Shown: positions 5,828-19,818, counted from the first letter of the stretch. The stretch is 64,000 nt of DNA from Gammaproteobacteria bacterium (GCA_947457195.1 CANGUU010000007.1:2967-66966); one strand, 5' to 3'. Notes: generated from the letters alone by a model not told the origin. Translations and numbers: made by a program.

Positions 5828-6014
5828 TCAGCCCGGGCGCCGCCGGCAGTAACATTTGTGTTCACGAAAACCCGCAAGCGCTCGACTGCAGGAGGGCTTG
5901 ATCCGGTGAAGGCCCGACAGAATGTAGAGTAGCTGCCGCTCGGGTGGGTGGCAGACAGCAGCAGCTGCTGGAGCTGCTCAGGTGAACGTCAAACAGACAG
6001 GTGAGGTTGCTGCC

Positions 6015-7439
6015 ATGCAACGCGTGTCACGGACAATTCCCGCTTTTGCGCTCGCCGCCACTACGCTGCTGGCCGCGGCTGTTGCCAGCGCGTCCGGGGT
6101 AGCGCCAGTGCTGGCCATCGGTGAAATCACGCTCGTGCTCGGCAAGGCCGAAGTCAAGCGCGCCGGTGGCGCCGTGGTGCCCGCCACCGTGGGCCTGCCG
6201 GTGCACGTCAACGACCTGATCGAAACCAATGCGCGCGGCCACGTACACGTGCACTTCGTCGACGATGCGCTGGTGAGCGTGCGGCCGCAGAGCCGGCTGG
6301 AGATCCTGCGCTATGACTACGACCCGGCCCGCCCCGCCGAATCCGCAGTCAAGATGAACCTCATCGAAGGCGAAACCCACGCCATTTCCGGCGAGGCCGC
6401 CAAGGCCGCGCGCCAGAATTACCGCATGAACACGCCCATCGCTGCCATCGGCGTGCGCGGCACGGACTACACGGTCACCGCCTCGCGTGAGGCCGTCACC
6501 GCCATCGTCAACGAAGGGGCCATCGTGGTGGCGCCGTTTTCCAGCGGTTGCTCGGCTGACACGCTCGGGCCCTGCAACCAGGGTGCCGTGGAGCTGAACG
6601 GCTATTCGCGTGAGCTGCTGGCACTCAGTGCCGACGCCGCCGGCGTGCGCTCCACGCTGCTGCCGCTCGGGCCGGTGGAAGGCCGCGCCGCCGAATTGCA
6701 GACGGCACCCAGCCCAGAACCGCAGGCCACCGCCAAGCAGGCCGAAGGCCAGCAGCTCTACAACGACACGGTCTCCACCCGTACTGTGAACACCAAGTTG
6801 GCCAGCTCCAGCGAATCCGCCAAGGCGCCAGCCGCTCCCACGCCGCTGGCGCCCACCCCGGTGCCGGTCACGCCCGCCCCTCCGCCCGTGCCTGAATTCA
6901 CGCCGCCCGTAGCCGTGCCTGCCACCACGCTCGCCAGTCAGGGCCAGCTGGTGTGGGGCCGCTGGACCGAAAACAACCTGGCCAACGAGCGCATCTCGGT
7001 TTCGTACGATGTCGCCCGCCAAGATGGCCGCAGCGTGTCGGTGGGCAACACGGTCTACGCGCTGTTCCGCGCCAGCGGCAGCGAGACCGTCTTCAAGCCC
7101 ACGCTCGGCGTGCTGCAGTTCAGCTTGCAGAAAGCGCAGGCCCTCTACAGCACGGCCGGCCGGACCGACCTCATGGGCGTTTCCGGCGGCAAATTGCAGC
7201 TGGACTTCGAACAGGCGCTGTTTTCCACCACGTTGCAGCTCAGCCACGAGGCGCTCGGTAATTACCAGTTCGCCACCAGCGGGCGTATTTATTCCGGCGG
7301 CGTGTTCCACGCCAACAACGAGACGCAGGCCATGGCCGGCGCACTCAGTTACGACAACAAGGAAGCCGGCTACTTCTTCGAGCGCACGCTGCCCGGCGGC
7401 ACCATCTCCGGCATCACCCTGTGGAACCGCGCCCCGTGA
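6015..7439 (+). CDS. Secreted FecR-domain protein with Pro-rich linker and C-terminal beta-rich domain
   Basis: ATG 6015 is preceded by AGGTGAGG (5999-6006). The signal peptide is MQRVSRTIPAFALAATTLLAAAVASA with no lipobox Cys. The FecR-like segment is GEITLVLGKAEVKRAGG...VHVNDLIETNARGHVHVHFVDDALVSVRPQSRLEI. A Pro-rich linker (APAAPTPLAPTPVPVTPAPPPVP) is followed by a roughly 170-aa domain with an alternating-hydrophobic pattern. An alternative GTG start lies at 5982. Confidence 0.75.
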   Translation: MQRVSRTIPAFALAATTLLAAAVASASGVAPVLAIGEITLVLGKAEVKRAGGAVVPATVGLPVHVNDLIETNARGHVHVHFVDDALVSVRPQSRLEILRYDYDPARPAESAVKMNLIEGETHAISGEAAKAARQNYRMNTPIAAIGVRGTDYTVTASREAVTAIVNEGAIVVAPFSSGCSADTLGPCNQGAVELNGYSRELLALSADAAGVRSTLLPLGPVEGRAAELQTAPSPEPQATAKQAEGQQLYNDTVSTRTVNTKLASSSESAKAPAAPTPLAPTPVPVTPAPPPVPEFTPPVAVPATTLASQGQLVWGRWTENNLANERISVSYDVARQDGRSVSVGNTVYALFRASGSETVFKPTLGVLQFSLQKAQALYSTAGRTDLMGVSGGKLQLDFEQALFSTTLQLSHEALGNYQFATSGRIYSGGVFHANNETQAMAGALSYDNKEAGYFFERTLPGGTISGITLWNRAP

Positions 7440-9433
7440 AAAACAGCGCCGCCATGGCCGCCTTGCTCCGGATACCCGGCCGCCTGATCGGCCAGTGGCA
7501 GCCGTGGCAGGCGCGTGCCGGACTGCTGGCCGGTGCCGGCCTGCTCACGCTGTTGCTGCAGGCCCTGCTGCCGTCCCTGGTTTCTGGCGTCGAGGAGCAG
7601 CTCGGCAGTCTCGGATGGCGCCTCGCGCCCGATGCCCGGCAGGAAGAGCGCATCAACATCATTGCGATCGACGAGAAGAGCCTCGCCGAGGTGGGCCCGT
7701 GGCCCTGGTCGCGGCAGACCATGGCGCAGCTTGCCACCGCCCTGCAGCAGGCCGGCGTGCAGCTGCAGGCCTACGACATCGCCTTCCCCGAAGCCCGTGA
7801 GGGCGACGATGCCTTCGCCGCCGCGCTGGCCGGCACCAGCGCCGTGCTGGCGCAGGTGCCCGACCTGCTCAATCCGGGCCAGATCACCACCACCGGCCTG
7901 CTCGGGTCGCCGCTGCTCGGCGTGGCCTGCAGCAACGCCGCCAGCACCGGCAGCTACACCGGCAACACGGCCGCGCTGGCCGGCATCGCCGCCGGCCATG
8001 CCACGCCCATCGTCGACGGTGATGGCGCGGTGCGCCGCGTGCCGGCCTATATCTGTGTGAACGGGCAGCCCTATCCGGCACTGGCGTTGAGTGCCCTGCT
8101 CGCCGCCACCCGCACGGACAGCTGGCAGGCCACGCGCAGCACAGGCGCCGGGCCCTGGCAGGCGGTGCAGCAACTCACCTTCGCGGCCTACCCCGGGCTT
8201 GCCATTCCCCTCGACGCCGACGGCAATTTCCGCGTGTCGTTCCGCCAGTCCCCCGACGCCTACCGCGCAATTTCGGCCGCCGACGTGCTGGCCGGCCGCG
8301 TAGACCCCGGCGTGCTGGCCAACAGCTGGGCGCTGGTCGGCTTCACCGCCTTCGGCATGAACGATGTCGTCCCCACTCCCTTCAACGGCGCCGCCCACGG
8401 CGTGGAACTGCAGGCCCGCATCCTTGCCAGCGTGCTCGACGCCAACGTCCCCTTCACCCCGCGGGCGGCGCCCTGGCTGCTGGCGCTGCTGTGTGCCGGT
8501 TTCGCCGCCCTGCTGTGGGGGCTGGCCGCCGCGCGGGAGCGGCTCGGTAACTATGGGTTGGCGGCCGGTGCTCTGCTGCTGCCGGCGCTGGCGCTCTATG
8601 TCCACATGCAGGTGCTGGCACAGTCCGCCTGGTGGCTGGGCTGGTTTGCGCCGGCCGTGTTCGGGTTCCTGGCGGGCAGCCTGTTGCTGCTGCAGGAATA
8701 TGCCCGAGTGCGTTTCGAGCGGGCGCGGGTGTTTGGCAACCTCAGCAGCTACCTGCCAGCCGAGGTGGCCGAGGCCATTGCCTTCAGCCTTCCCGGTTCG
8801 TCGGTGAATGCCGAGCGCCGCAACGTGACGCTGCTCAGTGCCGATCTGCGCAATTTCTCGGCCTTCGGCGAAGCGCGGCCGCCCGAAGAATCGGCGGCGC
8901 TGCTGCACATGTTCTTCAGCAAAAGCACCGAGATCGTGGAGCGTTGCCACGGCCGCATCCACGAATTCAAGGGCGATTCGCTGCTGGCCGTGTGGGAAGG
9001 CAGCGACGCCAAGGCCGCCAACCACGCGGTGCAGGCCGCCCTGCTCATGCAGAGCGCCATCAGCGAGTTCCTGCCGCAGCACCCCCCTGCAGGGCTTGAG
9101 CCGCTGGCGCTCGGCATCGGCATCGAACAGGGGCCGGTGCTCATCGGCTCGCTGGGTTCGGCCCAGCGCCGCAGCCATACGCTGCTGGGCGAAACGGTCA
9201 CCATCACGCTGCGCATTCAGGAGATGACTGCCGAACTCGCCCATCCCGTGCTGATCGGCGAATGCGCTGCCCGCCAGCTGGCGGATCTGGCGCTGGTGTC
9301 GCAGGGCAGCTACCTGCTGGCCGGCCTGCGCAATCCGCATATACTCTACGCGCTTCCGTTCAGCGCCCTGGCGCAGGCAACTGCCAGGATCGAACAGCCT
9401 CCTCTCAGAGTGGTGCGCGGCGGACGCAGTTGA
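7436..9433 (+). CDS. CHASE2-domain membrane sensor fused to a class III adenylate/guanylate cyclase
   Basis: The GTG start overlaps the FecR stop (GTGA, 7436-7439). The architecture is an N-terminal TM, a roughly 300-aa periplasmic CHASE2-like domain, three TM helices (APWLLALLCAGFAALLWGLAAA...) and a cyclase domain. The cyclase domain has metal Asp motifs (LLSADLRNFS, FKGDSLLAVW) and GETVTITLRIQ. The Lys in FKGD is compatible with ATP specificity but does not prove it. The start could also be 7421 or 7454. Confidence 0.85.
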   Translation: MKNSAAMAALLRIPGRLIGQWQPWQARAGLLAGAGLLTLLLQALLPSLVSGVEEQLGSLGWRLAPDARQEERINIIAIDEKSLAEVGPWPWSRQTMAQLATALQQAGVQLQAYDIAFPEAREGDDAFAAALAGTSAVLAQVPDLLNPGQITTTGLLGSPLLGVACSNAASTGSYTGNTAALAGIAAGHATPIVDGDGAVRRVPAYICVNGQPYPALALSALLAATRTDSWQATRSTGAGPWQAVQQLTFAAYPGLAIPLDADGNFRVSFRQSPDAYRAISAADVLAGRVDPGVLANSWALVGFTAFGMNDVVPTPFNGAAHGVELQARILASVLDANVPFTPRAAPWLLALLCAGFAALLWGLAAARERLGNYGLAAGALLLPALALYVHMQVLAQSAWWLGWFAPAVFGFLAGSLLLLQEYARVRFERARVFGNLSSYLPAEVAEAIAFSLPGSSVNAERRNVTLLSADLRNFSAFGEARPPEESAALLHMFFSKSTEIVERCHGRIHEFKGDSLLAVWEGSDAKAANHAVQAALLMQSAISEFLPQHPPAGLEPLALGIGIEQGPVLIGSLGSAQRRSHTLLGETVTITLRIQEMTAELAHPVLIGECAARQLADLALVSQGSYLLAGLRNPHILYALPFSALAQATARIEQPPLRVVRGGRS

Positions 9434-9468
9434 GTTGCCCGCCACTTTCGGAGTTCCCTGGCGCTGTG

Positions 9469-10929
9469 ATGCTTGCCGCCCCTTCCAACCTGTGGGAGCA
9501 CAGGTCTGCGACGTCCTTGCCGCGCTCGGGTCCGCACGGTCACGCTCAGCCTTCCCGCTGCTCCGCTTCCCGCCCGGTCTCCCGGCCGCCCGTCTTGCTT
9601 CGCCGCTGGCGTGTTGGCGCCTTGCTCGCGCCTTTGCTGCTGGTGCTGGGGTTGCCCGCCGCGCTCGGGCAAACATGCCCGCCGCTGCAACCTTATTACC
9701 CGGCCAGCAACCCCGCCCCACCGGAGGAGTGGCAGGCGCGGCTGCCACAGCTGGAGGCCTTGCTGGAAAACTGCCTGCAAAGCGCCGAGTACTTTGCGCT
9801 GCTGGGCGCCGCCCGGCTCAACAGCGGGCAGGTGCCGGCGGCAGTGGAATCGCTGGAGCGCGCGCTGCTGCTGCAGCCCGGCCACGGTGCCGCCCAGATC
9901 GACTACGCCGAAGCGCTGTACCTCAGCGGCCAGCTGTTCCCGGCGCTGGAACTGAACGAGACAGTGCTCGGCCGCAGTGACCTGCCCCCCGCCCTGCGGC
10001 CGGTGATCGAGGCACGGCAGCAGTTCTGGCGCGGGCAGACCCGGCGCCGCCAGCTTTCGCTGGAAGCCACTGCCGGCTACGACACCAACCTCAACAACGC
10101 CCCCACGCGCGGCGACCTGACGCTTACCTTCGGCGGCACGCCGGTCACGCTCAGCGTGGACCCGCAGTTCCGCCCGGTGGAAGGCCGCTTTGGCAACCTG
10201 CGTGCCGGCGGCGTGTGGCAGTGGCTCACCCCCGACCACCAGCATGACTTTACGGCCAACCTGCGCGGCCGCTTCACCGGCAGCGGCGCCACCGCGCTCA
10301 ACCAGGCCCAGTGGCGCTACGGCTTCAGCCGGCCCGGCCGCCACACGGTGTGGACGGCCAACGTAGGCAGCAGCCACATGAGCTTTGGGGGTAACGCCCT
10401 CTACAGCGTGGGCGAAACCCTCCTTACGCTGGGCTGGAACAGCGCCGGCCGCTGCCAACCCGCCCTGAGCGGTGGCCTGCAGACCCTGCACTACCACGGC
10501 CAGCGGGTGATGGACGGTCTGGAGGCCAGCCTGACCGCCAGCCTCGGCTGCCGGTCGGCCAGCGGCCGCCAGCAGCTACGGGTAGACGCCGGCGGACTGG
10601 ATAACAGCGCCAGCAGCGCCAACCGGCCCGGCGGCGACCGCGCCGGCTGGAACCTGCGGCTGGGCTGGCAGTACCAGTCCGGCCGGCACCTGTGGAGCGC
10701 GCTCTACAGCCACGCCAGCGTAGAAGACCAGCGCGGCTACAGCCCGCTGCTGGCCAATGGAGCCACCCGCCGGTTGGGCAACCGGGTGCTCCTGCTGCGC
10801 TACCAATGGGGCTTTGCGGAGGGCGCCGCCTTGGTGCTGGGGCTGAGCCACCAGGCCCAGTCCAGCAACCTGCAACCGTTCCAGAATCGTGGCACTGCAA
10901 CCGAAGTGGGACTGCTGCTCAACTTCTAG
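9469..10929 (+). CDS. TPR-containing outer-membrane beta-barrel protein (possibly Slam/DUF560-like)
   Basis: The signal-like segment is LLRRWRVGALLAPLLLVLGLPAALG. TPR-like helices follow (SAEYFALLGAARLNSGQVPAAVESLERALLLQPGHGAAQIDYAEALY). About 300 aa of amphipathic beta strands begin at LSLEATAGYDTNLNNAP and end in the aromatic terminus GLLLNF. The start is uncertain: ATG 9469 or TTG 9595. The Slam/DUF560 assignment is my pattern recognition only. Confidence 0.55.
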   Translation: MLAAPSNLWEHRSATSLPRSGPHGHAQPSRCSASRPVSRPPVLLRRWRVGALLAPLLLVLGLPAALGQTCPPLQPYYPASNPAPPEEWQARLPQLEALLENCLQSAEYFALLGAARLNSGQVPAAVESLERALLLQPGHGAAQIDYAEALYLSGQLFPALELNETVLGRSDLPPALRPVIEARQQFWRGQTRRRQLSLEATAGYDTNLNNAPTRGDLTLTFGGTPVTLSVDPQFRPVEGRFGNLRAGGVWQWLTPDHQHDFTANLRGRFTGSGATALNQAQWRYGFSRPGRHTVWTANVGSSHMSFGGNALYSVGETLLTLGWNSAGRCQPALSGGLQTLHYHGQRVMDGLEASLTASLGCRSASGRQQLRVDAGGLDNSASSANRPGGDRAGWNLRLGWQYQSGRHLWSALYSHASVEDQRGYSPLLANGATRRLGNRVLLLRYQWGFAEGAALVLGLSHQAQSSNLQPFQNRGTATEVGLLLNF

Positions 10930-11134: not shown

Positions 11135-11150
11135 TGTGACGCGAGTCACA
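11135..11150. promoter_or_regulatory. Perfect CRP consensus box TGTGA-CGCGAG-TCACA upstream of the S-layer-like gene
   Basis: Read directly: tgtga (11135-11139), cgcgag, tcaca (11146-11150). The centre is 11142.5, 117 bp upstream of ATG 11267, in a 337-bp lower-GC intergenic region. Confidence 0.6.
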
Positions 11151-11177: not shown

Positions 11178-11266
11178 CCACCCTGCTACAAGAGGCGAAA
11201 TTCCTCTACAAACCCAGTACCACTTGCCTTACCAACAACACCCTAAACTCCAAGGAGATATACAAG

Positions 11267-14200
11267 ATGGCGTCTATATCCGCTGAAGGCCGCAGTGAAC
11301 TCATTGCCCTTTACGTCACCATGTTCAACGCAGCCCCGAGCGCAGCCAACCTGTCTGCCATCGTGGGCCAGAGAGAAGGTGGCGCCAGCCTCGTGGCCGT
11401 TGCCAATACTCTGGCAGCCAGCCCCGATTTCGCCCGCCAGTATCCGGGCTTCCTGACGGCCGACGAATTTGCCAACCGTCTGGCCACCAACATGCTGGGC
11501 AGTGAGGTTTCCGCTGCCACTCGTGACTGGGCCGTGAACTACGTTCGCAGCCAGCTCACCTCCGGCCGCGCCGCCACTGCTGTGGTCACCGAGGCCGTCC
11601 AGGCCCTGCGCGGCACCACCAACACCGAATTTGCCAATGCCAAAGCACTGCTGGCCAACAAAGTGGAAGTTGCTTCCTACTACGCAATCTCGAAGGAGCA
11701 GCCAGCCGATTCCCAGGTTGTCATGATTGGTGTTACCAGTACTGCCTCGACGGTTGTCAGTGCAAAAACCGCAATCGATAGCATTGCGAGCGTAGTGGCT
11801 GGCCAGACCTTCACGCTCACTACCAGCGCCAACACGGGTGCCCTGTTTACTGGTGGTGCCGGTGACGATTCCTACAACGGCGATTTGAGCGGCGGCAACA
11901 ACACTCTGAATGCGCTGGATCGTCTCGATGGCGGCGCAGGGACGGATACGCTGAACGCTGTATTGGCGTCCGACGTTACGCCCGCCAGCATTGCCAACAT
12001 CGAAAACATCGTGGCTACTGCCTCGGGTGGCGCGCGTGAACTCAACCTGGTCAATGCACCAGGAGTCCGGTCTGTAAGCTCCACGTCCTCCTCTGGCGGC
12101 GTGATGACGGTCAGCGGCATTGCTGCTGGTGCATCGCTTGCCGTCAACTCCCAGTCCGTCGGCGCCACGTTCAACTACGCCGACACCTCGGGTACGCAAT
12201 CAATCGCCCTTGGCGTAGCCGGTGTAACAGGCGCAGCCCCTGTCACGGTAAACGGAGTAGAAACAATTGCCGTAACGGCAACGGGTTCCGCCAGCACCTA
12301 CCAGCTGTCGGCCGATGCACTGACCTCGGTGAGCTTTGCCGGTTCGGCTGCGCAAACCGTCACTCTGGCCGGTATGACCGGCACCTCTAGCTTCAACGCG
12401 GGTGCTGCTACCGGTGCTGTCAACCTGACCCTGATCAACCAGTCTATTCTGGCGTCCACCACGCGCGTGACCGTCACCGGCGGAACTGGTAACGATACGC
12501 TGACTGTCGGCGCCCATACGCAGTCCGACCTCAACGTCTCTGCCGGTGCTGGCAACGACACGGTAAGCCACAGCAGTGTTTCCACCACTGATACCCTCAG
12601 CGGCGGCGATGGAACCGATACGCTGAGCACCACAATGGCTTCCGCCAATGCGATCGATGCATCCGCCCCACTCACACGCATCATTACCGGCTTTGAGCGC
12701 ATTACGATCACTGACGCGTTCGACGGTACCCTTAGCCTATCCAACATCGACACTGGGCTTGTCCAGGTCAATCTGGCAGACGGTGCATCCGGCGCTGGTG
12801 CGTTGATGACTGGCGGTGACGCCATCACCGGCCCTGCGGGCACGCTGACAGTGAACGTTGGTGGCTCCTCTGCAGGTAACGCCACGACCATGGGCGGCGC
12901 ACTTACCGTGACGGACACCGGTACAGCGACGACGGACTCGGTAATCATCAACAATACGGCTGTCAACACCACGACTGCCCTTGGCATCAACGTGTTTAAC
13001 GCCCAAAACATCACGTCCACCGGCTATGAGAATGTCACCATTGGCGTTGGTAGCTCGGGTACGACTGCACCGGCGTCTACGATTGGTACACTCACCATTA
13101 CGCCGGACGATTTGACGGCAGCCATATCGCTCACACTGACCGGTGGAAACGATGTGACCATCTCAAGCGTGACATCGACGGGAACTGGTCGCCTGACCAT
13201 TGACGCCTCTGCCGTCAATGCCGGAACCGACAGCCCATACGTTCAGATCGACGCAGTTACCCTCGGAACAGGTGGCACTGCCAGCATCATTGGTTCTGCT
13301 GGTAACGACAGCATCACCAGCGGAACTGTTGCACAGACGATCTCCGGCGGTGCTGGTAACGATACCATCACCGGTGGCACAGCCGCCGACAACATCAGCG
13401 GCGATGCTGGCAACGACACCATCACTGATGGCGCGGGTGGCAATGACACTATCGCTGGTGGTGATGGTAACGACACGATCACCGTGACGGGTACCTCTAC
13501 CGTAAGCGTAGATGGTGGTGCCGGTAACGACACCATTAACATCGGTAGCGTATTGTCGGCGCTTGACACCGTAAGCGGGGGTGATGGTACCGATACTCTC
13601 CGTTACTCCAGTGCCGTTACCGCAGACGTTGCTGTAGGGGTGGCAGGCTTCGAAACGCTGCGCGCCGACGCTGCGCTAACGCAGGATATGGTGCAGTTCG
13701 TAAATAATGCTGGCTTTACCCGCTTGATCAACCAGGTTGCTGGTGCCGTAACGTTCAACAACGTCGGCAGCGCCGTGACCTCGTTCACCGCGGGCGTTGC
13801 GGGCTCAACGACTACTATTGATCGCCTGCTGGATACGACATCCAACAGCCTCTCGGTATCACTGACCACTGCAACGACGACGACTGCACTCACTGCAAGT
13901 GATGAAGAAACTATCACGGTGAGTTCCAGCTTGACTGGTGCAGTCACCCTGACCACACTGACGGCGGACGACTTGACCACGCTGAATATTGGCGGTCTTG
14001 GCGCCGTTACCATCACCAACATCGCCAATGCAGCCAACTTGGCTGCAATCAATATCACGACCTCGGCGGCGGTATCGGTGAATGGAAACCAGTCCACGGT
14101 TAATATGACGGCGACCGGTACATCAGCATTCGCCAACACCATTACCGGTGGTTCTGGCAATGACGTGATCACGGGTGGTTCTGCAGCAGATAGCCTCACG

Positions 14201-14869
14201 GGCGGCGGCGGCGCCGATACCGTCTCCGGTGGTAACGGCGACGATATCTTGCTGGGTGGCAGCGGTGCCGACAGCATCACGGGCGGTGAAGGCTCCGATA
14301 GCGTTACTGGTGGCACTGGCAACGACACCGTGGTTCTTACCGAGAACTCCGCTGTAGCGGACACGGTGGTTCTGTCCACAGCGGCTACCAATGGTGTTGA
14401 TACCATCGTCGGTTTTGCGGCGGGTGCAGGGGCAGACATCATCCAGTTCGTCAATGCCGACACCACGCAGGCCGATGCTGCAGGCGCAGGCGCATTCCAA
14501 GACATTGCTGCAGTCACCTTGGTGAACGCTGCCGCCTACGATCTGGCCGCAGTCATCAACACTGCTACAATTTCCGTGGTGGAACTGCGAGGCACAACCG
14601 CAGCCAACGGCGATCTGGGTGCGGCGACCGATGGTTCAGAATTGCTGAAGTTACTCGGCACCGCCGACTCGGCAGCGACCGGCATCACCGTTGACAACAA
14701 CGGTGATCAGCTCTTCCTGGTAGCGTACGACAACGGCAATGCCTACCTGTTCCATGCAAACTCCGGTGCTGACACTACCGTCTCAGCCTCTGAGATCCGG
14801 TTGGTGGGTATCCTCACGGGTATCACGGTTGGTGCAATTGCTGACGGCGACATCGTAAGCTTGGCCTAA
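11267..14869 (+). CDS. RTX-repeat, T1SS-secreted S-layer-like surface protein (RsaA-type architecture)
   Basis: 1200 aa, rich in Thr/Ala/Gly/Ser/Val, and I saw no Cys. The N-terminal helical domain of about 150 aa is not repeat-like. Long beta-strand repeats follow. Two blocks of GGxGxD nonapeptides are present (GGAGNDTITGGTAADNISGDAGNDTITDGAGGNDTIAGGDGNDTI and GGSGNDVITGGSAADSLTGGGGADTVSGGNGDDILLGGSGADSITGGEGSDSVTGGTGNDTV). There is no N-terminal signal peptide. The C-terminus ...LFLVAYDNGNAYLFHANSGADTTVSASEIRLVGILTGITVGAIADGDIVSLA has the style of uncleaved T1SS signals. Confidence 0.8.
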   Translation: MASISAEGRSELIALYVTMFNAAPSAANLSAIVGQREGGASLVAVANTLAASPDFARQYPGFLTADEFANRLATNMLGSEVSAATRDWAVNYVRSQLTSGRAATAVVTEAVQALRGTTNTEFANAKALLANKVEVASYYAISKEQPADSQVVMIGVTSTASTVVSAKTAIDSIASVVAGQTFTLTTSANTGALFTGGAGDDSYNGDLSGGNNTLNALDRLDGGAGTDTLNAVLASDVTPASIANIENIVATASGGARELNLVNAPGVRSVSSTSSSGGVMTVSGIAAGASLAVNSQSVGATFNYADTSGTQSIALGVAGVTGAAPVTVNGVETIAVTATGSASTYQLSADALTSVSFAGSAAQTVTLAGMTGTSSFNAGAATGAVNLTLINQSILASTTRVTVTGGTGNDTLTVGAHTQSDLNVSAGAGNDTVSHSSVSTTDTLSGGDGTDTLSTTMASANAIDASAPLTRIITGFERITITDAFDGTLSLSNIDTGLVQVNLADGASGAGALMTGGDAITGPAGTLTVNVGGSSAGNATTMGGALTVTDTGTATTDSVIINNTAVNTTTALGINVFNAQNITSTGYENVTIGVGSSGTTAPASTIGTLTITPDDLTAAISLTLTGGNDVTISSVTSTGTGRLTIDASAVNAGTDSPYVQIDAVTLGTGGTASIIGSAGNDSITSGTVAQTISGGAGNDTITGGTAADNISGDAGNDTITDGAGGNDTIAGGDGNDTITVTGTSTVSVDGGAGNDTINIGSVLSALDTVSGGDGTDTLRYSSAVTADVAVGVAGFETLRADAALTQDMVQFVNNAGFTRLINQVAGAVTFNNVGSAVTSFTAGVAGSTTTIDRLLDTTSNSLSVSLTTATTTTALTASDEETITVSSSLTGAVTLTTLTADDLTTLNIGGLGAVTITNIANAANLAAINITTSAAVSVNGNQSTVNMTATGTSAFANTITGGSGNDVITGGSAADSLTGGGGADTVSGGNGDDILLGGSGADSITGGEGSDSVTGGTGNDTVVLTENSAVADTVVLSTAATNGVDTIVGFAAGAGADIIQFVNADTTQADAAGAGAFQDIAAVTLVNAAAYDLAAVINTATISVVELRGTTAANGDLGAATDGSELLKLLGTADSAATGITVDNNGDQLFLVAYDNGNAYLFHANSGADTTVSASEIRLVGILTGITVGAIADGDIVSLA
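13340..13602 (+). repeat. RTX Ca-binding nonapeptide repeat block 1 (coding repeat)
   Basis: Tandem GGxGNDTI units are read in frame from Ile692 onward, with further GGAGNDTINIG and GGDGTDTL units up to about 13602. Confidence 0.8.
14141..14335 (+). repeat. RTX Ca-binding nonapeptide repeat block 2 (coding repeat)
   Basis: Seven consecutive GGxGxDx(L/I/V)x units are read in frame, from ITGGSGNDV to GGTGNDTVV. Confidence 0.85.
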
Positions 14870-14891: not shown

Positions 14892-14926
14892 AAAACCCGC
14901 CCCCCAAAAGGGGGCGGGTTTTTTTT
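14892..14926 (+). terminator. Rho-independent terminator after the S-layer-like gene
   Basis: A 9-bp GC stem (cccgccccc at 14896-14904 pairing with gggggcggg at 14910-14918) has a 5-nt loop and is followed by T8 (14919-14926). It is preceded by A4, so it may be bidirectional. Confidence 0.85.
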
Positions 14927-15113
14927 GGCTATTCTTCCGAGACCATGCCTGAGGTAGCGTAAGCCCCTCTCCTATGCGATTCACCCACTAACAACAGGCC
15001 ACACCTGCAGGGAATGTGCGGCGAGGTGACGAAGCCCGACGCCACCAAAGACTTCAACGCCGCAAACTGGGATGCATAACGACGCCCCGACTTGCAGAGG
15101 AACTCTCCCCCTC

Positions 15114-15398
15114 ATGACACTGCATCAGCACACCCGGGAACGACTGCTGGCACATCTCGCTGCTGCGGGAACAAAGGAGCAGCCCGGCGTACTCAACAAC
15201 GCGCTCAGACTCCTCGCCAAGTGGCGAAGTGCATTGATTCAAGACGTGGTACTGAAGCAGCATGGTACGGTGGTACAGCAAGGGCCACTCCAAGGACTAG
15301 AGTTCGTGGAGGCATCAGCAGAGGGTTGCCATATTGCGAAACTGCTTGGAACTTACGAGCAAGCCTTTCAGCCATTCATTGAACAGGCGGTGGGCTGA
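15114..15398 (+). CDS. Hypothetical protein; possibly the detached N-terminal part of the downstream methyltransferase
   Basis: The ORF is in the same frame as 15408-15935, separated by TGA-GGG-TAA-AAA. The upstream boundary is uncertain (ATG 15072 or 15114). No motif was recognised. Confidence 0.35.
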   Translation: MTLHQHTRERLLAHLAAAGTKEQPGVLNNALRLLAKWRSALIQDVVLKQHGTVVQQGPLQGLEFVEASAEGCHIAKLLGTYEQAFQPFIEQAVG

Positions 15399-15407
15399 GG
15401 GTAAAAA

Positions 15408-15935
15408 ATGGTTGTCAACATCGGCTGTGCCGAGGGCTACTATACTGTTGGTATCGCACGACGCTTGCCCAACAGCCGCATTCTGGCATTTGATTCGTAT
15501 GCACTTGCCCGTCAAACCTGCAAGCGTCTCGCGCAAATGAACGGAGTCAGCCAGTCGGTGCATATTGGGCATCAGTTCGAGCCAGGGGACTTTGCTGCCC
15601 TGCCGTCGCAGGACACCCTTGTGCTCTGCGATATTGAAGGTGCTGAAGGGGCGCTGCTTGCACCTACGCAAGCACCTAACCTGGCCAATCTTGACCTGAT
15701 TGTAGAGAGCCATGAATGTCTCGTGCCGGGAATCACCAAAACTTTGATTGAGCGCTTTGCAAGCACCCACGACATCACGCTGGTGCAAGATACCGGGCAG
15801 CGCAATCTCGAATCCCCAGCGCCGTGGTTTCTGGGACTCTCGCACCTCGATCAATTGTTGGCCGTATGGGAGTGGCGCTCTGGTCCAACGCCATGGCTTG
15901 TGATGAGGAGCCGCACTGGCCGCGAAGCAGCATGA
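15408..15935 (+). CDS. Class I SAM-dependent methyltransferase (FkbM-like style)
   Basis: 175 aa. The ATG is preceded by GAGGG. The SAM-binding glycine motif is VVNIGCAEGYYTVGIA, followed by an acidic residue after beta2 (ILAFDS). The stop overlaps the next start (ATGA at 15932-15935). Confidence 0.65.
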   Translation: MVVNIGCAEGYYTVGIARRLPNSRILAFDSYALARQTCKRLAQMNGVSQSVHIGHQFEPGDFAALPSQDTLVLCDIEGAEGALLAPTQAPNLANLDLIVESHECLVPGITKTLIERFASTHDITLVQDTGQRNLESPAPWFLGLSHLDQLLAVWEWRSGPTPWLVMRSRTGREAA

Positions 15936-17596
15936 CGGCCGCTATCTATTTTCATCCGGAAGCCTACTCCACCAGCGGCCCCAAGCTGATGGGGCGCAAC
16001 GCAGCAGGAGAGTCGTTCCTGCGAGGATTCCTGACCCATGCCACTGCAACCCAATGGTGGGCCCAGGTACAACGACCAGAGCATGGCACGGCCTTCGCGC
16101 ACATTGTCCGCCAGCACGGCCGTCATGAGCCGGTGAAGATCATCGACAACCGCGCGCTGCCCTCACTCGCCGATGCAAGCGTCGTCTACTACCCCGGCCC
16201 CGGTATCGGTTCGCATGCACTTGAGCGCGCGGCGTATGGACACGGCGCCTGGAGTCTGTGCGGGATCACCCATACCACCAGCAGCGCCGTGGCTATGGAC
16301 GCTATCACAGCGCTCATCACGCAACCGGTATACCCTTGGGACGCCGTGATATGTACATCCACGGCAGTCAAGGACAATGTCAACCGCCTGCTGCAAGCGC
16401 AGGTCGACTACCTGCAGGACCGACTCGGTATTACCCGCCTGCCCCTGCCACAGTTGCCGGTGATTCCGCTGGGTATCCACACCACTGACTTTGAATTCAG
16501 CCCACAACAGCGGTTCGAAGCTCGTGCGCGGCTTGGCCTTAGCGAGCGCCATGATGCCTTGGTAGTACTTTATGTGGGCAGGTTGTCCTTCCATGCCAAG
16601 GCCCACCCGCTTGCCATGTACCAGGCGCTCGAAGCAGCCGCTCGGCGCAGTGGCAGGGATGTCGTGTTGGTGGAATGTGGCTGGCATGCCAACGAGTCGA
16701 TAAAGCAGGCCTTCGTTGCTGCGCAGCAGTCGGCTTGTCCATCAATCACCTGTCGACTGCTCGACGGTAGGAGCTCGGCGGATCGAGAAACTGCCTGGGC
16801 TGCAGCCGATGTGTTCTGTTCATTATCGGATAACATCCAGGAGACCTTCGGTATTGTCCCCATCGAAGCGATGGCAGCCGGGCTGCCGGTGGTAGTGTCC
16901 GACTGGGACGGCTACAAGGATACGGTGCGCCACGGCATTGACGGGTTCCGCATCCCCACTACCATGCCAGCACCCCGCTTAGGAGGCGATCTTGCAATGC
17001 GCCATGCGCTTGAGATCGATACCTATGACATGTACTGCGGACATACATGTTCGCTGGTGGCGGTCGATGTGCAGGCGGCCGCCGCTGCCTTCACTGCCTT
17101 GTTTGAGTCACCGGAGGCACGACGTCGCTACGGTATGGCTGCCAGGCAGCATGCACGGGAGCATTACGACTGGGGCGTGATTATTCCGCGCTATGAGCAG
17201 CTCTGGCGTGAACTTGGAGAGCGGAGACAGGCGAGCGCAGCAGGACTCAAGACACTGCCTTTTCCGTGGCCTGCACGCATGGATCCATTCCACAGTTTTG
17301 CCAGCTATCCAAGCCAGACCCTTACGGCTGATAGTCTATTGGAAGTGGTGGACTCCGAACCGGCCGTGGCAGCCGCCAGACTGGCGCAGTACCGCGGACT
17401 GGCGATGGTCAGCTTCGCGAAGACCGTCCTCCCCAGCGACGATGAAACCACAGCCATCTTGCAGAACGCTTACCGTTACGGCGGGGCTGCGACGGCTGCA
17501 AACTTACTGACTGGTATCGTGCCTGCCCGGCAGCCGTACGTACTCCGAGCACTCTCCTGGCTACTGAAGTTGGGAATCCTGCGACTGCGAGCATGA
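15932..17596 (+). CDS. Glycosyltransferase family 4 (GT-B fold)
   Basis: The start at ATG 15932 overlaps the upstream stop. The C-terminal GT4 signature region is FCSLSDNIQETFGIVPIEAMAAGLPVVVSDWDGYKDTV (the EX7E region). Confidence 0.8.
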   Translation: MTAAIYFHPEAYSTSGPKLMGRNAAGESFLRGFLTHATATQWWAQVQRPEHGTAFAHIVRQHGRHEPVKIIDNRALPSLADASVVYYPGPGIGSHALERAAYGHGAWSLCGITHTTSSAVAMDAITALITQPVYPWDAVICTSTAVKDNVNRLLQAQVDYLQDRLGITRLPLPQLPVIPLGIHTTDFEFSPQQRFEARARLGLSERHDALVVLYVGRLSFHAKAHPLAMYQALEAAARRSGRDVVLVECGWHANESIKQAFVAAQQSACPSITCRLLDGRSSADRETAWAAADVFCSLSDNIQETFGIVPIEAMAAGLPVVVSDWDGYKDTVRHGIDGFRIPTTMPAPRLGGDLAMRHALEIDTYDMYCGHTCSLVAVDVQAAAAAFTALFESPEARRRYGMAARQHAREHYDWGVIIPRYEQLWRELGERRQASAAGLKTLPFPWPARMDPFHSFASYPSQTLTADSLLEVVDSEPAVAAARLAQYRGLAMVSFAKTVLPSDDETTAILQNAYRYGGAATAANLLTGIVPARQPYVLRALSWLLKLGILRLRA

Positions 17597-18837
17597 AGAT
17601 CCTTTTCATCCACCAGAATTTCCCCGGTCAGTTCAAGCACCTGGCGCCGGCGCTGGTAGCAGGAGGACACGAGGTGTTCGCTACCACCATGCGCGAAAAG
17701 GAGCGCAGGGTGGTGGACGGAGTGACCTTGATCCCCTACACGAACACCCGCGGCTCGACGCCCAACATCCATCCGTGGGCTACCGATTTCGAAACCCAGA
17801 TCATCCGTGCCGAAGCCTGCTTCCATGCGGCGTTGGCGCTGCGCGCCTCCGGCTTTGCCCCCGATCTGATCATTGCCCACCACGGATGGGGCGAAAGCCT
17901 TTTCCTGAAGGAGGTGTGGCCTCAGGCCCGGTTGGCCATCTACTGCGAATTCTTTTACCGGTCGGAGGGGGCAGACACGAACTTCGATCCCGAGTTTCCA
18001 CCCAAGGATGCTGGCGAGGTGTGCCGCCTGCACCTGAAGAACGTCAATAACCTGCTTCACTTTGAAGTGGCTGATGCAGGACTCAGTCCCACGCAGTGGC
18101 AGGCCAGTACTTTTCCGTCGCGCTTTCGCAGCAAGATTACCGTCGTGCACGATGGCATCGATACAGCGCTGCTGACGCCCAATCCGGCGGCCAGAATCAC
18201 GCTCAACGGTACATTACAGCTCACGCGCGAGAACGAAGTGATCACCTTCGTCAACCGCAACCTCGAACCGTATCGCGGGTATCACATCTTCATGCGCGCG
18301 TTGCCGGACATATTGCGGCGGCGCCCCAACGCGCGGGTGCTGTTGGTGGGCGGCGACGACGTGAGCTACGGGGCCCGGCCCGCGGAGGGCAGGAAATGGC
18401 GCGATATTTTTGCTGAAGAGGTGCGTCCCCACATAAGCGCCGCCGATTGGGCGCGGGTGCATTTCCTCGGCCATATTCCCTACCAGCATTTTGTTCCGTT
18501 GCTGCAGCTGTCGACGGTGCATGTGTACCTCACCTACCCCTTCGTGCTGTCGTGGAGCCTGCTGGAGGCCATGAGCGTGGGCTGCGCCATCGTGGCCAGC
18601 AATACCGCGCCGCTGCGCGAGGCAATTGAGCACGACAAGACTGGCCGAATGGTGGATTTTTTCGACGTGGCCGGCCTCGCCGATGAAGTGTGCGCCCTGC
18701 TCGCGGACCCGGCCGCTCGCCTGCGGCTCGGGCAGTCTGCCCGCGCCTTTGCCCGCCTCCACTACGATCTGCGGAGCGTCTGCCTGCCACAGCAACTGGC
18801 CTGGGTTGAGAGTCTGCTGAAACGCCGTAATCCCTGA
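17593..18837 (+). CDS. Glycosyltransferase family 4 (GT-B fold)
   Basis: 414 aa, with an ATGA overlap to the previous gene. The N-terminus is MKILFIHQNFPGQFKHLAPAL. The C-terminal motif is YPFVLSWSLLEAMSVGCAIVASNTAPLREAI. Confidence 0.8.
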   Translation: MKILFIHQNFPGQFKHLAPALVAGGHEVFATTMREKERRVVDGVTLIPYTNTRGSTPNIHPWATDFETQIIRAEACFHAALALRASGFAPDLIIAHHGWGESLFLKEVWPQARLAIYCEFFYRSEGADTNFDPEFPPKDAGEVCRLHLKNVNNLLHFEVADAGLSPTQWQASTFPSRFRSKITVVHDGIDTALLTPNPAARITLNGTLQLTRENEVITFVNRNLEPYRGYHIFMRALPDILRRRPNARVLLVGGDDVSYGARPAEGRKWRDIFAEEVRPHISAADWARVHFLGHIPYQHFVPLLQLSTVHVYLTYPFVLSWSLLEAMSVGCAIVASNTAPLREAIEHDKTGRMVDFFDVAGLADEVCALLADPAARLRLGQSARAFARLHYDLRSVCLPQQLAWVESLLKRRNP

Positions 18838-19011
18838 AATCTGGCGGACCCCGGGTCGGGGCCTGCGACCGACGCCGCAAACGCGAGGGTCTGCTGCGGT
18901 GTGCCATACCGGCCCCACCCGTTGCTGGTGCCTGGGGCAAGTGCTACCGTTCGCCGCCCTTGCACCAGGTACTGCTCCCCGTTGTCCACAGGCCACTCCG
19001 GCACCCTCCCC

Positions 19012-19797
19012 ATGCCCGAACTCCACGTCGTTAGCTGGCAAGACCACGGCGCCAAGCGCTGGCTCAAGCCTTTCTCTTACGCGTTCGCCGCTGGCGATCA
19101 ATTGGTGGCCCTGGGCCTGGCCGAAGTGCCGCGTGCTGCGATGGTGCTGCCGCTGGCCTTTGCCAAGAGCGGGGGCAGTTACCTGCCAGTGGCGGTGCTC
19201 GGCTTCAAGCAGGGCCACAATTTGGTCGTGAGCGCAGACGGTCGCTGGCTGCCTGATTACGTGCCGCTGTTCTTCCGCAGCCACCCGTTCCGGCTGGCCC
19301 GCAATGCCGACGGCAACTTTGTGCTTTGCGTGATCGGCGACAGCGGACTCATCACGGACGGGCCTGCCGGCAACCGGTTCTACGACGATGAACGCAAGCC
19401 TACGCCGGAAACCAGCGCCATCGGCACCGCACTGCTGCAGTTGGAAAACGACAAGGCCTCGATGCTGAAGGCCACCGCCATCCTCGCCGAGCACGACGCC
19501 ATCGAGCCTTGGCCGTTCCGCGTGCAGGAGGCCGAGGGCATCAAGACCTACGAAAACGTCTACCGCGTGAACGAAAGCAAGCTGAACCAGCTCCCCGCCG
19601 ATGCACTGGCGGCCCTTCGCAACAGCGGTGGCCTGGTACTGGCCTATGCGCAGCTGCTTTCCATGCAGCACCTGCCGCAACTGGCGGCCGCGGCGCCGCG
19701 TAGCGCCTGGGGCCAGCAGAACCCCGAGCCTGTGCGCCGGGTTGCCGCCCTCAACATCGTCGATGACAATGGCACGCTGTCGTTTGCCCACTTGTAG
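19012..19797 (+). CDS. SapC-family protein
   Basis: The start is at ATG 19012. Segments typical of SapC are LAEVPRAAMVLPLAF...YVPLFFRSHPFRLARNADGNFVLCV. The family was named from the Campylobacter fetus sapCDEF S-layer secretion locus. Confidence 0.7.
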   Translation: MPELHVVSWQDHGAKRWLKPFSYAFAAGDQLVALGLAEVPRAAMVLPLAFAKSGGSYLPVAVLGFKQGHNLVVSADGRWLPDYVPLFFRSHPFRLARNADGNFVLCVIGDSGLITDGPAGNRFYDDERKPTPETSAIGTALLQLENDKASMLKATAILAEHDAIEPWPFRVQEAEGIKTYENVYRVNESKLNQLPADALAALRNSGGLVLAYAQLLSMQHLPQLAAAAPRSAWGQQNPEPVRRVAALNIVDDNGTLSFAHL

Positions 19798-19818
19798 CCG
19801 TCTCTCGCGGAACCCTGC

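What the first reader, a model, noticed from the sequence alone, without database searches (positions are those of the whole stretch)
11267..14869. RsaA-style, Cys-free RTX S-layer candidate in a gammaproteobacterial context
The 1200-aa protein has the hallmarks of T1SS-exported S-layer proteins. It lacks a signal peptide and I saw no Cys. It is very rich in Thr/Ala/Gly/Ser/Val. A distinct N-terminal helical domain could act as the anchor. RTX blocks are concentrated in the C-terminal half, and the hydrophobic C-terminal tail ends ...GDIVSLA. Expression signals are the strongest in the window: an AAGGAG RBS, a 9-bp GC stem plus T8 terminator, and a monocistronic layout. In Caulobacter the N-terminal domain of RsaA binds the O-antigen. 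Here a glycan island follows immediately.
Basis: partly seen in the sequence, partly recalled or inferred. Interest (0 to 1): 0.6.

Follow-up and report, generated by a model that had tools for sequence, protein, structure and literature searches.

The report
RsaA-like secreted surface-layer protein candidate
This gene encodes a large calcium-binding protein that is a true, distant relative of the Caulobacter surface-layer protein RsaA; it sits beside its own export pump and sugar-building genes, so it most likely forms a protein coat on an uncultured marine bacterium, although nobody has yet seen that coat.

Summary
ORF 11267-14869 encodes a 1200-aa, 116-kDa, pI 4.05, Cys-free protein (62% T/A/G/S/V) with 15 RTX-like nonapeptides. 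It has the only AAGGAG ribosome-binding site among 39 ORFs and the strongest terminator in the window.

A family profile matches RsaA collinearly outside the RTX blocks (E = 3e-43). A confident AlphaFold model (pLDDT 87.7) finds RsaA as its six best PDB matches (E = 4e-16 to 2e-12). The neighbouring PrtD-type type I secretion system (T1SS) is the only one found in the assembly.

Three things differ from RsaA:
- The helical N-terminal domain (NTD) is not RsaA-like. It is a widespread unannotated module, swapped between family members and conserved within the genus while the body diverges.
- The promoter carries a conserved CRP-type box.
- The body travels across phyla with a pair of GT4 glycosyltransferases. 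One is related to the gene at the ExpC position of the Sinorhizobium EPS II cluster.

Earlier notes of this scan describe RTX/T1SS/glycosyltransferase islands in at least 12 other genomes, but none shares this protein's sequence. Verdict: a new variant of a known kind, of moderate interest.

The parts
11267..14869 (+). RsaA-like RTX surface-layer protein candidate: 1200 aa, Cys-free, pI 4.05
   Evidence: ORF and composition; RsaA profile match E = 3e-43; Foldseek top six hits RsaA
11267..11782 (+). N-terminal helical domain (residues 1-172), the proposed cell-surface anchor; an unannotated, widespread module
   Evidence: AF2 helices; conserved 39-71% in the genus while the body diverges; 811 representative clusters at E<=1e-30, nearly always N-terminal; no PDB or Pfam match
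11807..14446 (+). Beta-rich body (residues ~181-1060) with RTX blocks at 676-779 and 961-1023; homologous to the RsaA lattice domain
14447..14866 (+). C-terminal ~140 residues ending GDIVSLA; presumed uncleaved T1SS secretion signal region
   Evidence: Position and family conservation; relatives end DVLTLA/DVVTLV; no RsaA hit for this part alone, (inferred role)
11135..11150 (+). Perfect CRP-type box TGTGACGCGAGTCACA, unique in the window
   Evidence: an exact box 118-146 nt upstream of the SLP start in L014, L016, L018, L020, L022
11172..11177 (+). TAATAT -10-like hexamer without a -35 (class II-like geometry)
11252..11257 (+). AAGGAG Shine-Dalgarno, 9 nt before the ATG
14896..14926 (+). Intrinsic terminator: CCCGCCCCC/GGGGGCGGG stem plus T8
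2998..4716 (-). T1SS ABC permease/ATPase, PrtD subfamily, no C39/CLD domain
   Evidence: TIGR01842 737.5 bits (cut-off 510); only copy in the assembly
1564..2952 (-). T1SS HlyD-family membrane fusion protein
   Evidence: TIGR01843 366 bits
230..1561 (-). TolC-family outer membrane channel
   Evidence: PF02321; TIGR01844 220 bits (cut-off 225)
4991..5692 (-). Crp-family regulator (cNMP-binding domain plus HTH), the probable reader of the box
   Evidence: syntenic in relatives
5982..10929 (+). FecR-domain protein, CHASE2 nucleotide cyclase and TPR protein: a conserved sensor module upstream
   Evidence: synteny
15072..15935 (+). Methyltransferase-like gene interrupted by two in-frame stops
   Evidence: 54% identical to an intact 269-aa ORF in L025
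15824..17596 (+). GT4a glycosyltransferase (~550-590 aa), co-inherited with the protein body
   Evidence: 44-67% identical next to SLP homologues in 5 loci and one plasmid
17593..18837 (+). GT4b glycosyltransferase (PF12000), related to the ExpC-position GT4 of S. meliloti
   Evidence: 66-72% identical across phyla; 39% to the pSymB exp-cluster GT4
18901..24331 (+). SapC-family gene, unknown gene, GT2, SDR epimerase/reductase, rfbC, rfbB: the rest of the glycan island
   Evidence: the SapC-orfX-GT2 trio recurs in loci with the same NTD type

Best explanation
The gene encodes a type I-secreted, calcium-binding surface-layer protein of the RsaA family.

Shown:
- The beta-rich body (residues ~180-1120) is homologous to the lattice-forming domain of RsaA.
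- The protein lacks Cys and a Sec signal.
- It lies beside the only PrtD-type ABC/HlyD/TolC system found in the assembly.
- It has the strongest RBS and terminator in the window.

Inferred mechanism:
- The unfolded chain is exported C-terminus first through the T1SS.
- It folds on binding Ca2+ at the RTX turns.
- It is held on the outer membrane by its 172-residue helical N-terminal domain, which binds a surface glycan.
- It assembles into a two-dimensional coat.

Transcription is probably switched on by the neighbouring Crp-family regulator and CHASE2 cyclase through a class II-like box, so the coat would be conditional, not constitutive. The body is inherited as a cassette together with a methyltransferase and two GT4 glycosyltransferases. 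These most likely build the glycan with which the coat cooperates. Less likely, they glycosylate the protein itself.
For: RsaA homology:
- The family profile A1 matches RsaA at E = 3e-43. Profile positions 161-426 align with RsaA 225-493 and 725-1121 with 631-1012, including non-RTX segments such as TFTLTTGxDxxTG and GFETLR.
- The single sequence already gives a 345-residue stretch at E = 1.5e-6.
- The AF2 model has pLDDT 87.7.
- Foldseek ranks six RsaA chains first, at E = 4e-16 to 1.6e-12 and probability 1.00; the next hit, CyaA, is at 1.6e-3.

Secretion:
- TIGR01842 PrtD-type ABC at 737.5 bits, plus HlyD and TolC.
- Only one such system and one large RTX protein were found in the 2.8-Mb assembly.

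Surface-coat signatures:
- Cys-free (P = 4e-7), pI 4.05, 62% T/A/G/S/V.
- The only AAGGAG among 39 ORFs and the strongest terminator in the window.

Evolution typical of exposed coat proteins:
- 19 of 21 congeneric genomes have a match, mostly to the NTD only.
- In syntenic loci the ABC, CRP and cyclase are 57-76% identical, but the SLP keeps only its first ~170-260 residues (39-45% in syntenic loci; up to 71% in the genus scan).
- The gene lies in a low-GC island, with GC3 in the lowest 2.9%.

Precedent: RsaA homologues at ~20% identity with an upstream T1SS form the S-layer of gammaproteobacterial methanotrophs, shown by deletion (PMC11784148).

Regulation: an exact TGTGA-N6-TCACA box lies 118-146 nt upstream in six loci, including Janthinobacterium.

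Glycan link: the GT4a/GT4b pair is present in 5 of 6 loci with an alignable body and in 0 of 5 loci that share only the NTD.
Against: - There is no direct evidence of a lattice, of surface location or of abundance.
- Global TM-scores to RsaA are low (0.21-0.32, rmsd ~22 A), so the overall shape is not shown to be the same.
- The NTD has no detectable similarity to RsaA's LPS-binding domain.
- The C-terminal 167 residues alone do not match RsaA.
- A CRP-dependent promoter is unlike the constitutive rsaA promoter (my own knowledge) and would also suit a conditional adhesin or matrix protein.
- The same NTD is fused elsewhere to Ig-like and cadherin+RTX bodies, so it marks surface retention, not lattices.
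- Codon usage is only partly expression-like.
- The GT4 pair also accompanies a pure-RTX 2166-aa protein on a Desulfolutivibrio plasmid, and its relative sits in an exopolysaccharide cluster.
Confidence: 0.6

Rival explanations
1. Non-crystalline surface shield, adhesin or biofilm-matrix protein. The protein is secreted by the T1SS and held on the cell by its N-terminal domain, but it forms an amorphous coat or mediates attachment. It is switched on by the cyclase/CRP circuit when needed, much like the Psh phage shield of P. putida or RTX adhesins.
For: The activator-dependent promoter and sensor cyclase are conserved with the gene. The same NTD is fused to Ig-like and cadherin+RTX adhesin-type bodies. 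Relatives carry two tandem NTD-sharing paralogues of different length. Psh, a T1SS-secreted RTX-DUF4214 protein, binds O-antigen and blocks phages without being described as a lattice (preprint 10.64898/2026.09.02.748959). Half of the family carries a DUF4214 NTD.
Against: The body is specifically RsaA-like, not Ig- or cadherin-like. RsaA-like proteins tested so far form S-layers. No adhesin families matched in Pfam or NCBIfam beyond the RTX repeats.
Confidence: 0.2
2. EPS II-like exopolysaccharide system. The RTX protein plays the ExpE1 role: a T1SS-secreted calcium-binding helper needed to make or release a polysaccharide built by GT4a/GT4b/GT2 from dTDP-sugars. The polysaccharide, not the protein, is the functional product.
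For: GT4b is 39% identical over its full length to the GT4 that sits at the ExpC position of the S. meliloti pSymB exp/wg cluster. The ABC (41%), MFP (32%), rfbC (47%) and rfbB (49%) also match that cluster. In S. meliloti, ExpD1/D2 secrete ExpE1 and are needed for galactoglucan (PMC1403797). The island has no Wzx/Wzy/Wzm/Wzt genes, and none is annotated in the pSymB exp stretch examined. GT4b is better conserved than the protein body.
Against: The ExpE1-like protein is a 219-aa pure RTX roll that matches only the RTX blocks, whereas this cargo is a 1200-aa RsaA homologue with an anchor domain. GT4a, the methyltransferase and SapC have no counterpart in the exp cluster at E<1e-4. No MarR/ExpG regulator or pyruvyl transferases are present. 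Congeners keep the T1SS, circuit and NTD but lack the GT4 pair, so the secreted protein is the constant element.
Confidence: 0.15
3. Soluble RTX toxin or exoenzyme released into the medium.
For: The top raw HMM hits are CyaA, hemolysins, serralysins and lipases.
Against: All those matches are confined to the RTX blocks and lie far below family cut-offs (68 against 1000 bits, and so on). No catalytic, pore-forming or acylation domain is present and no acyltransferase gene is nearby. The non-RTX parts match only RsaA.
Confidence: 0.03

Closest known systems
RsaA, the S-layer protein of Caulobacter crescentus (PDB 5N8P, 5N97, 6P5T, 6Z7P), with RsaD/E/F
   Same: Homologous beta-rich Ca2+-binding body (profile E = 3e-43; Foldseek top six hits). 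Similar size. No Cys. A helical NTD followed by a beta body. A PrtD-class T1SS. Glycan genes alongside.
   Different: The NTD is not homologous to RsaA's LPS-binding domain. The body is ~250 residues longer and has more canonical RTX repeats. The T1SS is upstream and divergent, with its own OMP. The promoter is CRP-box dependent, with a sensor cyclase. A co-inherited GT4 pair is present. Global TM-score is only 0.2-0.3.
Methanotroph 'hauberk' S-layer proteins (MEALZ_0971, EQU24_15540; M. album H8GFV3)
   Same: Gammaproteobacterial distant RsaA homologues with a complete T1SS upstream. Deletion abolishes the S-layer (PMC11784148; PMC13274458).
   Different: They are reported with different N-terminal regions (a predicted TM segment) and, for M. 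album, a 4036-aa size. Their similarity to this protein was not measured here.
Psh of Pseudomonas putida KT2440 (RTX-DUF4214 protein)
   Same: T1SS-secreted RTX protein with a helical DUF4214-class domain that binds LPS O-antigen. Located near O-antigen and T1SS genes. Acts as a surface shield (preprint 10.64898/2026.09.02.748959).
   Different: The domain order is reversed (RTX N-terminal, DUF4214 C-terminal as described). It is not reported as RsaA-like or lattice-forming. The NTD here is only faintly DUF4214-like (2 of 8 relatives, E = 0.0025; phycobilisome-linker folds at E = 0.12).
Sinorhizobium meliloti EPS II (exp/wg) system: ExpE1, ExpD1/D2, ExpC, ExpA7-10
   Same: A PrtD-type T1SS with an RTX cargo, an ExpC-position GT4 (39% to GT4b) and dTDP-sugar genes in one locus. 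The T1SS is needed for the surface polymer (PMC1403797).
   Different: The cargo there is a 219-aa pure RTX roll. The regulator is MarR/ExpG, not CRP. GT4a, SapC and the methyltransferase are not shared. The product there is a secreted galactoglucan.
SwmA of marine Synechococcus, and oscillin
   Same: RTX surface proteins reported as glycosylated. SwmA forms the S-layer (PMC3034196, PMC3342319).
   Different: Cyanobacterial and linked to motility. Homology to this protein was not tested. That glycosyltransferase genes lie next to swmA is my recollection only.
Campylobacter fetus SapA/SapB with sapCDEF
   Same: T1SS-secreted S-layer proteins with a conserved N-terminal LPS-binding part and variable remainder, and multiple homologues per genome (my own knowledge). 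A SapC-family gene is linked to the locus (PMC4943207; PF07277 at 176 bits here).
   Different: Sap proteins are not RTX proteins (my own knowledge). No evidence here of promoter inversion. Only one copy in this genome.

Membership tests
RsaA-type S-layer protein | Sequence homology to the RsaA lattice domain outside the RTX repeats | tested here: met
   Profile A1 against PDB: RsaA E = 3e-43, two collinear stretches of ~270 and ~400 residues; single sequence E = 1.5e-6
RsaA-type S-layer protein | Structural similarity to RsaA | tested here: met
   Foldseek: six RsaA chains rank first, E = 4e-16 to 1.6e-12, probability 1.00. TM is only 0.21-0.32, so the similarity is local, not global
RsaA-type S-layer protein | RsaA-type N-terminal LPS/O-antigen-binding domain | tested here: not met
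   NTD profile A2 finds nothing in the PDB. The NTD-only model (pLDDT 90.6) does not hit 6Z7P or the RsaA NTD; the best hit is a phycobilisome linker at E = 0.12
RsaA-type S-layer protein | Secretion by a dedicated PrtD/AprD-class T1SS through an uncleaved C-terminal signal | tested here: inconclusive
   A PrtD-type ABC, MFP and OMP are adjacent and are the only such genes found in the assembly. Secretion itself and the signal are not testable here, and the C-terminus alone does not match RsaA
RsaA-type S-layer protein | Ca2+-dependent assembly into a 2D lattice covering the cell | not testable with these tools
   Needs EM or in vitro crystallisation
RsaA-type S-layer protein | Very high abundance | not testable with these tools
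Indirect evidence: unique AAGGAG and strongest terminator; codon usage mixed
RTX protein (PF00353) | Tandem GGxGxDxUx nonapeptides | tested here: met
   15 motifs; PF00353 E = 2.8e-28
RTX cytotoxins / serralysins / lipases | Family-specific catalytic or pore-forming domain; score above the NCBIfam cut-off | tested here: not met
   RTX_toxin 68 bits against 1000; serralysin 53 against 500; matches lie only in the RTX blocks
DUF4214 (PF13946) N-terminal domain | Match to the Pfam model | tested here: inconclusive
   No hit for this protein. 2 of 8 same-type NTDs hit weakly (E = 0.0025). 17 of 38 family members carry a true DUF4214 instead. Weak phycobilisome-linker fold hits
S. meliloti EPS II (exp/wg) system | ExpD1/D2-type T1SS and an ExpC-type GT4 in one locus | tested here: met
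   ABC 41%, MFP 32%, GT4b 39% to the pSymB exp cluster
S. meliloti EPS II (exp/wg) system | Small ExpE1-type cargo; ExpG/MarR regulator; ExpE2-E8 and pyruvyl transferases | tested here: not met
   The cargo is a 1200-aa RsaA homologue. ExpE1-like matches only the RTX blocks. GT4a, MT and SapC have no counterpart. The regulator is Crp-type
C. fetus sap locus | SapC-family gene linked to a T1SS-secreted S-layer gene | tested here: met
   PF07277 at 175.6 bits at 18901-19797; recurs in L014, L016, L019, L022. Homology of the SLP to SapA was not tested

The most novel reading that the evidence does not exclude
The surface coat is built from two independently exchangeable modules. One is a lineage-specific N-terminal anchor domain that co-occurs with a SapC/unknown/GT2 gene trio. 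The other is an RsaA-like or RTX body that moves between phyla (Gamma- and Betaproteobacteria, Desulfobacterota, and a Desulfovibrionaceae plasmid) as a cassette with a methyltransferase and a GT4a/GT4b pair. In the boldest version, that pair glycosylates the Thr/Ser-rich body in the cytoplasm before type I export, giving a glycosylated S-layer protein secreted by a T1SS. RsaA-type S-layers and the unexplained ExpE1/EPS II system would then be two faces of one ancestral 'RTX cargo plus GT4 glycan' surface-coat module.
Probability: 0.2. Interest if true: 0.75.

Novelty: new variant of a known kind. Interest (0 to 1): 0.5.

Why it matters
- S-layers of Gram-negative bacteria are understood in atomic detail essentially only for Caulobacter. 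This locus extends the RsaA family, by homology rather than analogy, to an uncultured marine gammaproteobacterial lineage and to hundreds of metagenomic relatives.
- It shows that the family is modular. One RsaA-like body can be carried by at least four different N-terminal anchor domains. One of these is a very large unannotated family (811 representative clusters at E<=1e-30).
- It gives a candidate case of a regulated coat, controlled by an envelope sensor cyclase and a CRP-type activator.
- It links RsaA-like proteins to an ExpC-type glycosyltransferase pair. That link could help explain why the Sinorhizobium EPS II system needs a secreted RTX protein.
- A cultured carrier, Janthinobacterium sp. 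BJB412, makes all of this testable.

Tried and rejected
- **The search for related loci, family alignment:** no stretch was conserved enough to search with.
- **The search for related loci, single protein in genome contigs:** only weak RTX-level hits; the window's own genome is excluded.
- **Taxon from rpoB, EF-Tu, S12, L2:** not findable in the assembly. I used AtpA cluster names instead.
- **Codon-usage test for high expression:** the reference set was small (ATP synthase, DnaK). The result was mixed, so it is not used as support.
- **NTD against RsaA NTD:** negative by profile and by fold. The weak NTD alignment came from DUF4214-type rows and has low posterior values, so I rejected it.
- **C-terminal 167 residues against PDB:** no RsaA hit, so no shared secretion signal is claimed.
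- **M10 protease at 24981-26534 as a Sap-like S-layer-editing protease:** rejected. It has a Sec-type signal peptide and several Cys, and no RTX repeats.
- **GT4a and GT4b against PDB:** only generic MshA/PimA hits, uninformative on the acceptor.
- **Absence of Wzx/Wzy as an argument for protein glycosylation:** dropped, because the pSymB exp stretch examined likewise has none annotated.
- **SwmA-locus genetics:** the paper is not held.

Full report
**1. Observation**

The ORF at 11267-14869 (+) exists and encodes 1200 residues.
- It has no Cys. With a genome-wide Cys frequency of 1.22%, the chance of none in 1200 residues is about 4e-7.
- It is 62% Thr/Ala/Gly/Ser/Val, against a median of 39% for long ORFs.
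- It has 102 acidic against 26 basic residues, a mass of 116 kDa and a pI of 4.05.
- Fifteen RTX-like nonapeptides are present, twelve of them in two blocks at residues 676-779 and 961-1023. PF00353 scores E = 2.8e-28.
- The protein ends GDIVSLA.
- AAGGAG lies 9 nt before the ATG. This is the only one of 39 ORFs in the window with that motif.
- The terminator at 14896-14926 (9-bp G+C stem plus T8) is the strongest hairpin plus T-run in the 64 kb. With its flanks it folds at -32.5 kcal/mol, z = -4.4.
- No sigma-70 -35/-10 pair is found. Instead a perfect TGTGA-N6-TCACA box (11135-11150), unique in the window, lies 20 nt upstream of TAATAT.

**2. Surroundings**

Upstream on the minus strand lie a TolC-family channel, a HlyD-family adaptor (TIGR01843, 366 bits) and a PrtD-subfamily ABC exporter without a C39 domain (TIGR01842, 737.5 bits). 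They are followed by a Crp-family regulator, and on the plus strand by a FecR-domain protein, a CHASE2 nucleotide cyclase and a TPR protein.

Downstream come, in order:
- a methyltransferase-like gene broken by two in-frame stops;
- two GT4 glycosyltransferases;
- a SapC-family gene (PF07277, 176 bits);
- an unknown gene, a GT2, an SDR, rfbC and rfbB.

No flippase, polymerase or ABC glycan exporter is present, and housekeeping genes resume at about 26 kb.

In the whole 2.8-Mb assembly this is the only PrtD/HlyD-type system found and the only large RTX protein. One 366-aa ORF elsewhere has three repeats.

The organism is probably a gammaproteobacterium near Pseudohongiellaceae. This rests on the names in its AtpA 90% cluster. 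The usual marker genes could not be found.

**3. What the protein is**

A database search gave thousands of relatives, many about 1200 aa long. A few are labelled 'S-layer protein' by JGI.

A 38-member alignment (A1) used as a profile against the PDB puts RsaA at E = 3e-43. It matches in two long collinear stretches: profile 161-426 with RsaA 225-493, and 725-1121 with 631-1012. Both include non-RTX segments. The only higher score, CyaA, is a sum of short RTX-block matches.

A confident AlphaFold model (mean pLDDT 87.7; helices at 1-172, then beta) finds six RsaA chains as its best PDB matches (E = 4e-16 to 1.6e-12, probability 1.00). The next hit is 13 orders of magnitude weaker. Global TM-scores are low (0.21-0.32), so the similarity is local and serial, and the overall shape is not shown to be the same.

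Toxin, protease and lipase families match only the RTX blocks and fall far below their cut-offs. The body is therefore a genuine RsaA homologue.

**4. The N-terminal domain is a different module**

- A profile of eight NTDs of this type finds nothing in the PDB, and only a faint DUF4214 signal in Pfam.
- An NTD-only model (pLDDT 90.6, pTM 0.85) has no significant structural match. Its best hits are phycobilisome-linker domains at E = 0.12, and RsaA's NTD does not appear.
- The family shows at least four N-terminal types on the same body: true DUF4214 (17 of 38 members), this type, a YYLxxNPDV-repeat type and Calx-beta.
- Searched against 1.8 billion representatives, this NTD type occurs in 811 clusters at E<=1e-30 and 3712 at E<=1e-3. 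It sits almost always at residues 1-180 of proteins of 500-2600 aa. Their bodies include Ig-like and cadherin+RTX arrays.

It therefore looks like a general surface-retention module. That fits an anchor role but is not specific to S-layers.

A recent preprint reports that a T1SS-secreted RTX-DUF4214 protein of P. putida binds LPS O-antigen. This makes glycan binding by this class of helical domain plausible, but the relation of the present NTD to DUF4214 is only weak.

**5. Evolutionary pattern**

Nineteen of 21 congeneric genomes have a match, mostly to the NTD alone.

In syntenic loci of the same genus and of another genus of the same family, the order OMP-MFP-ABC-CRP | FecR-CHASE2-TPR-SLP is kept. 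ABC, CRP and cyclase are 57-76% identical there. The SLP, however, retains only its first ~170-260 residues (39-45%). The rest is unalignable by BLAST and matches the family HMM only in fragments. Some congeners have two tandem Cys-free paralogues that share the NTD.

Conversely, the body is 54% identical over about 1000 residues to a protein of Janthinobacterium sp. BJB412 that carries a DUF4214 NTD. In that comparison the T1SS and regulators are only 27-50% identical.

The gene and the two GT4 genes lie in a low-GC island (57-61% against 65-70%). The gene's GC3 is in the lowest 2.9% of long ORFs.

A conserved anchor with a fast-changing, laterally exchanged exposed body is what one expects of a coat protein under selection from phages or grazers. 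That last point is an inference.

**6. The glycosyltransferase cassette**

GT4a (about 550-590 aa) and GT4b (PF12000, about 410 aa) follow the SLP gene directly, or after one or two small genes, in most loci where the body is alignable:
- They are present in five of six such loci (G005, Janthinobacterium, two metagenomic contigs and Desulfamplus). GT4b is 67-72% identical in these, which is more than the body itself (37-54%).
- The sixth locus has an IS element just downstream.
- They are absent from all five loci that share only the NTD.
- The pair also sits next to a 2166-aa pure-RTX protein and a T1SS on a Desulfolutivibrio plasmid.
- In congener G003, which has a different body, the downstream genes are instead a methyltransferase and a TPR-sulfotransferase.

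Following a lead from earlier notes of this scan, I found that GT4b has a full-length homologue (39%) inside the S. meliloti pSymB exp/wg cluster. By its position (my recollection of the gene order) it is ExpC. It lies beside homologues of this window's ABC (41%), MFP (32%), rfbC (47%) and rfbB (49%), and beside a 219-aa calcium-binding protein that matches only the RTX blocks.

In that system ExpC is assigned as a galactosyltransferase, and the T1SS and its RTX cargo are needed for galactoglucan production (PMC1403797). This favours glycan synthesis over protein glycosylation for the GT4 pair. Glycosylated RTX surface proteins are nevertheless documented (SwmA, oscillin; PMC3034196), and the acceptor cannot be inferred from sequence.

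The SapC/unknown/GT2 trio recurs in loci with this NTD type and not in the four loci with other NTDs. Those loci are close kin, so this is only suggestive.

**7. Regulation**

An exact TGTGA-N6-TCACA box lies 118-146 nt upstream of the SLP start in the window, in three relatives of the same family, in a metagenomic contig and in Janthinobacterium. The Crp-like gene and the CHASE2 cyclase accompany it each time. Two loci (L024, L025) have the body and the GT4 pair without this circuit. The coat gene thus looks conditionally activated, which differs from Caulobacter rsaA (my own knowledge).

**8. Verdict**

The most likely reading (0.6) is a T1SS-secreted, Ca2+-dependent S-layer protein of the RsaA family. 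It would be anchored by a non-RsaA helical domain, expressed under cyclic-nucleotide/CRP control and coupled to a dedicated glycan.

Rivals:
- a non-crystalline shield, adhesin or matrix protein (0.2);
- an ExpE1-like helper of exopolysaccharide production (0.15);
- a toxin or enzyme (0.03).

There is experimental precedent for RsaA-like S-layers with an upstream T1SS in Gammaproteobacteria (PMC11784148, PMC13274458), so the kind is known. What is new is the anchor module, the regulation and the body-plus-GT4 cassette.

Earlier notes of this scan describe RTX/T1SS/glycosyltransferase islands in at least 12 other genomes. By sequence, this protein was seen only in its own window.

Noticed in passing
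window 15072-15935: The methyltransferase-like gene downstream of the SLP gene is interrupted by two in-frame stops (…VG*G*KMVVNIGCAEGYY…, TGA-GGG-TAA). Its second half is 54% identical to part of an intact 269-aa ORF in Desulfamplus (L025). It is a probable pseudogene or a sequencing error.
   Followed up: partly
window 24981-26534: A 517-aa M10 (matrixin-type) metalloprotease with a Sec-type signal peptide and several Cys lies at the end of the glycan island. It is not RTX- or Sap-like.
   Followed up: partly
G000 contig C43:14303-15404: A second, small (366-aa) Cys-free ORF with three RTX repeats and a C-terminus like a T1SS substrate. It may be a second cargo of the single T1SS.
   Followed up: no
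L016 (G004) 8479-13206 and L019 (G001): Two tandem Cys-free paralogues share the NTD but differ in body length (945+550 aa; 858+>810 aa). Only the first carries the CRP box. This recalls the sapA homologue arrays of C. fetus.
   Followed up: partly
L014 (G003) 16185-19452: Where the congener's SLP has a different body, the GT4 pair is replaced by a MethyTransf_Reg methyltransferase and a TPR-sulfotransferase. This suggests body-specific modifying enzymes.
   Followed up: partly
protein P0139 (1679 aa): One representative protein carries the NTD-type domain in seven matched stretches, the best at residues 1094-1269. So the module can also be internal and repeated.
   Followed up: no
L025 (Desulfamplus magnetovallimortis) 3981-8867: A 1628-aa SWM_repeat/Big_5 protein lies between the T1SS genes and the RsaA-like gene. 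The SWM repeat is named after the Synechococcus motility protein SwmB (my recollection).
   Followed up: no
L027 (Desulfolutivibrio sulfoxidireducens plasmid p1): The GT4a/GT4b pair, a 2166-aa RTX protein and a C39-type T1SS sit on a 58-kb plasmid flanked by transposases. This is direct evidence that the cassette is mobile.
   Followed up: partly
G000 whole assembly: rpoB, EF-Tu, S12 and L2 could not be found in an assembly rated 100% complete, while GroEL, AtpD and DnaK are present.
   Followed up: partly
window 13805-14023 (residues 847-919): A Pfam FlgD_tudor hit (30.1 bits, cut-off 26.9) lies inside the beta body. It was found in only 1 of 38 family members, so it is probably a chance match of a beta-rich segment.
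   Followed up: no
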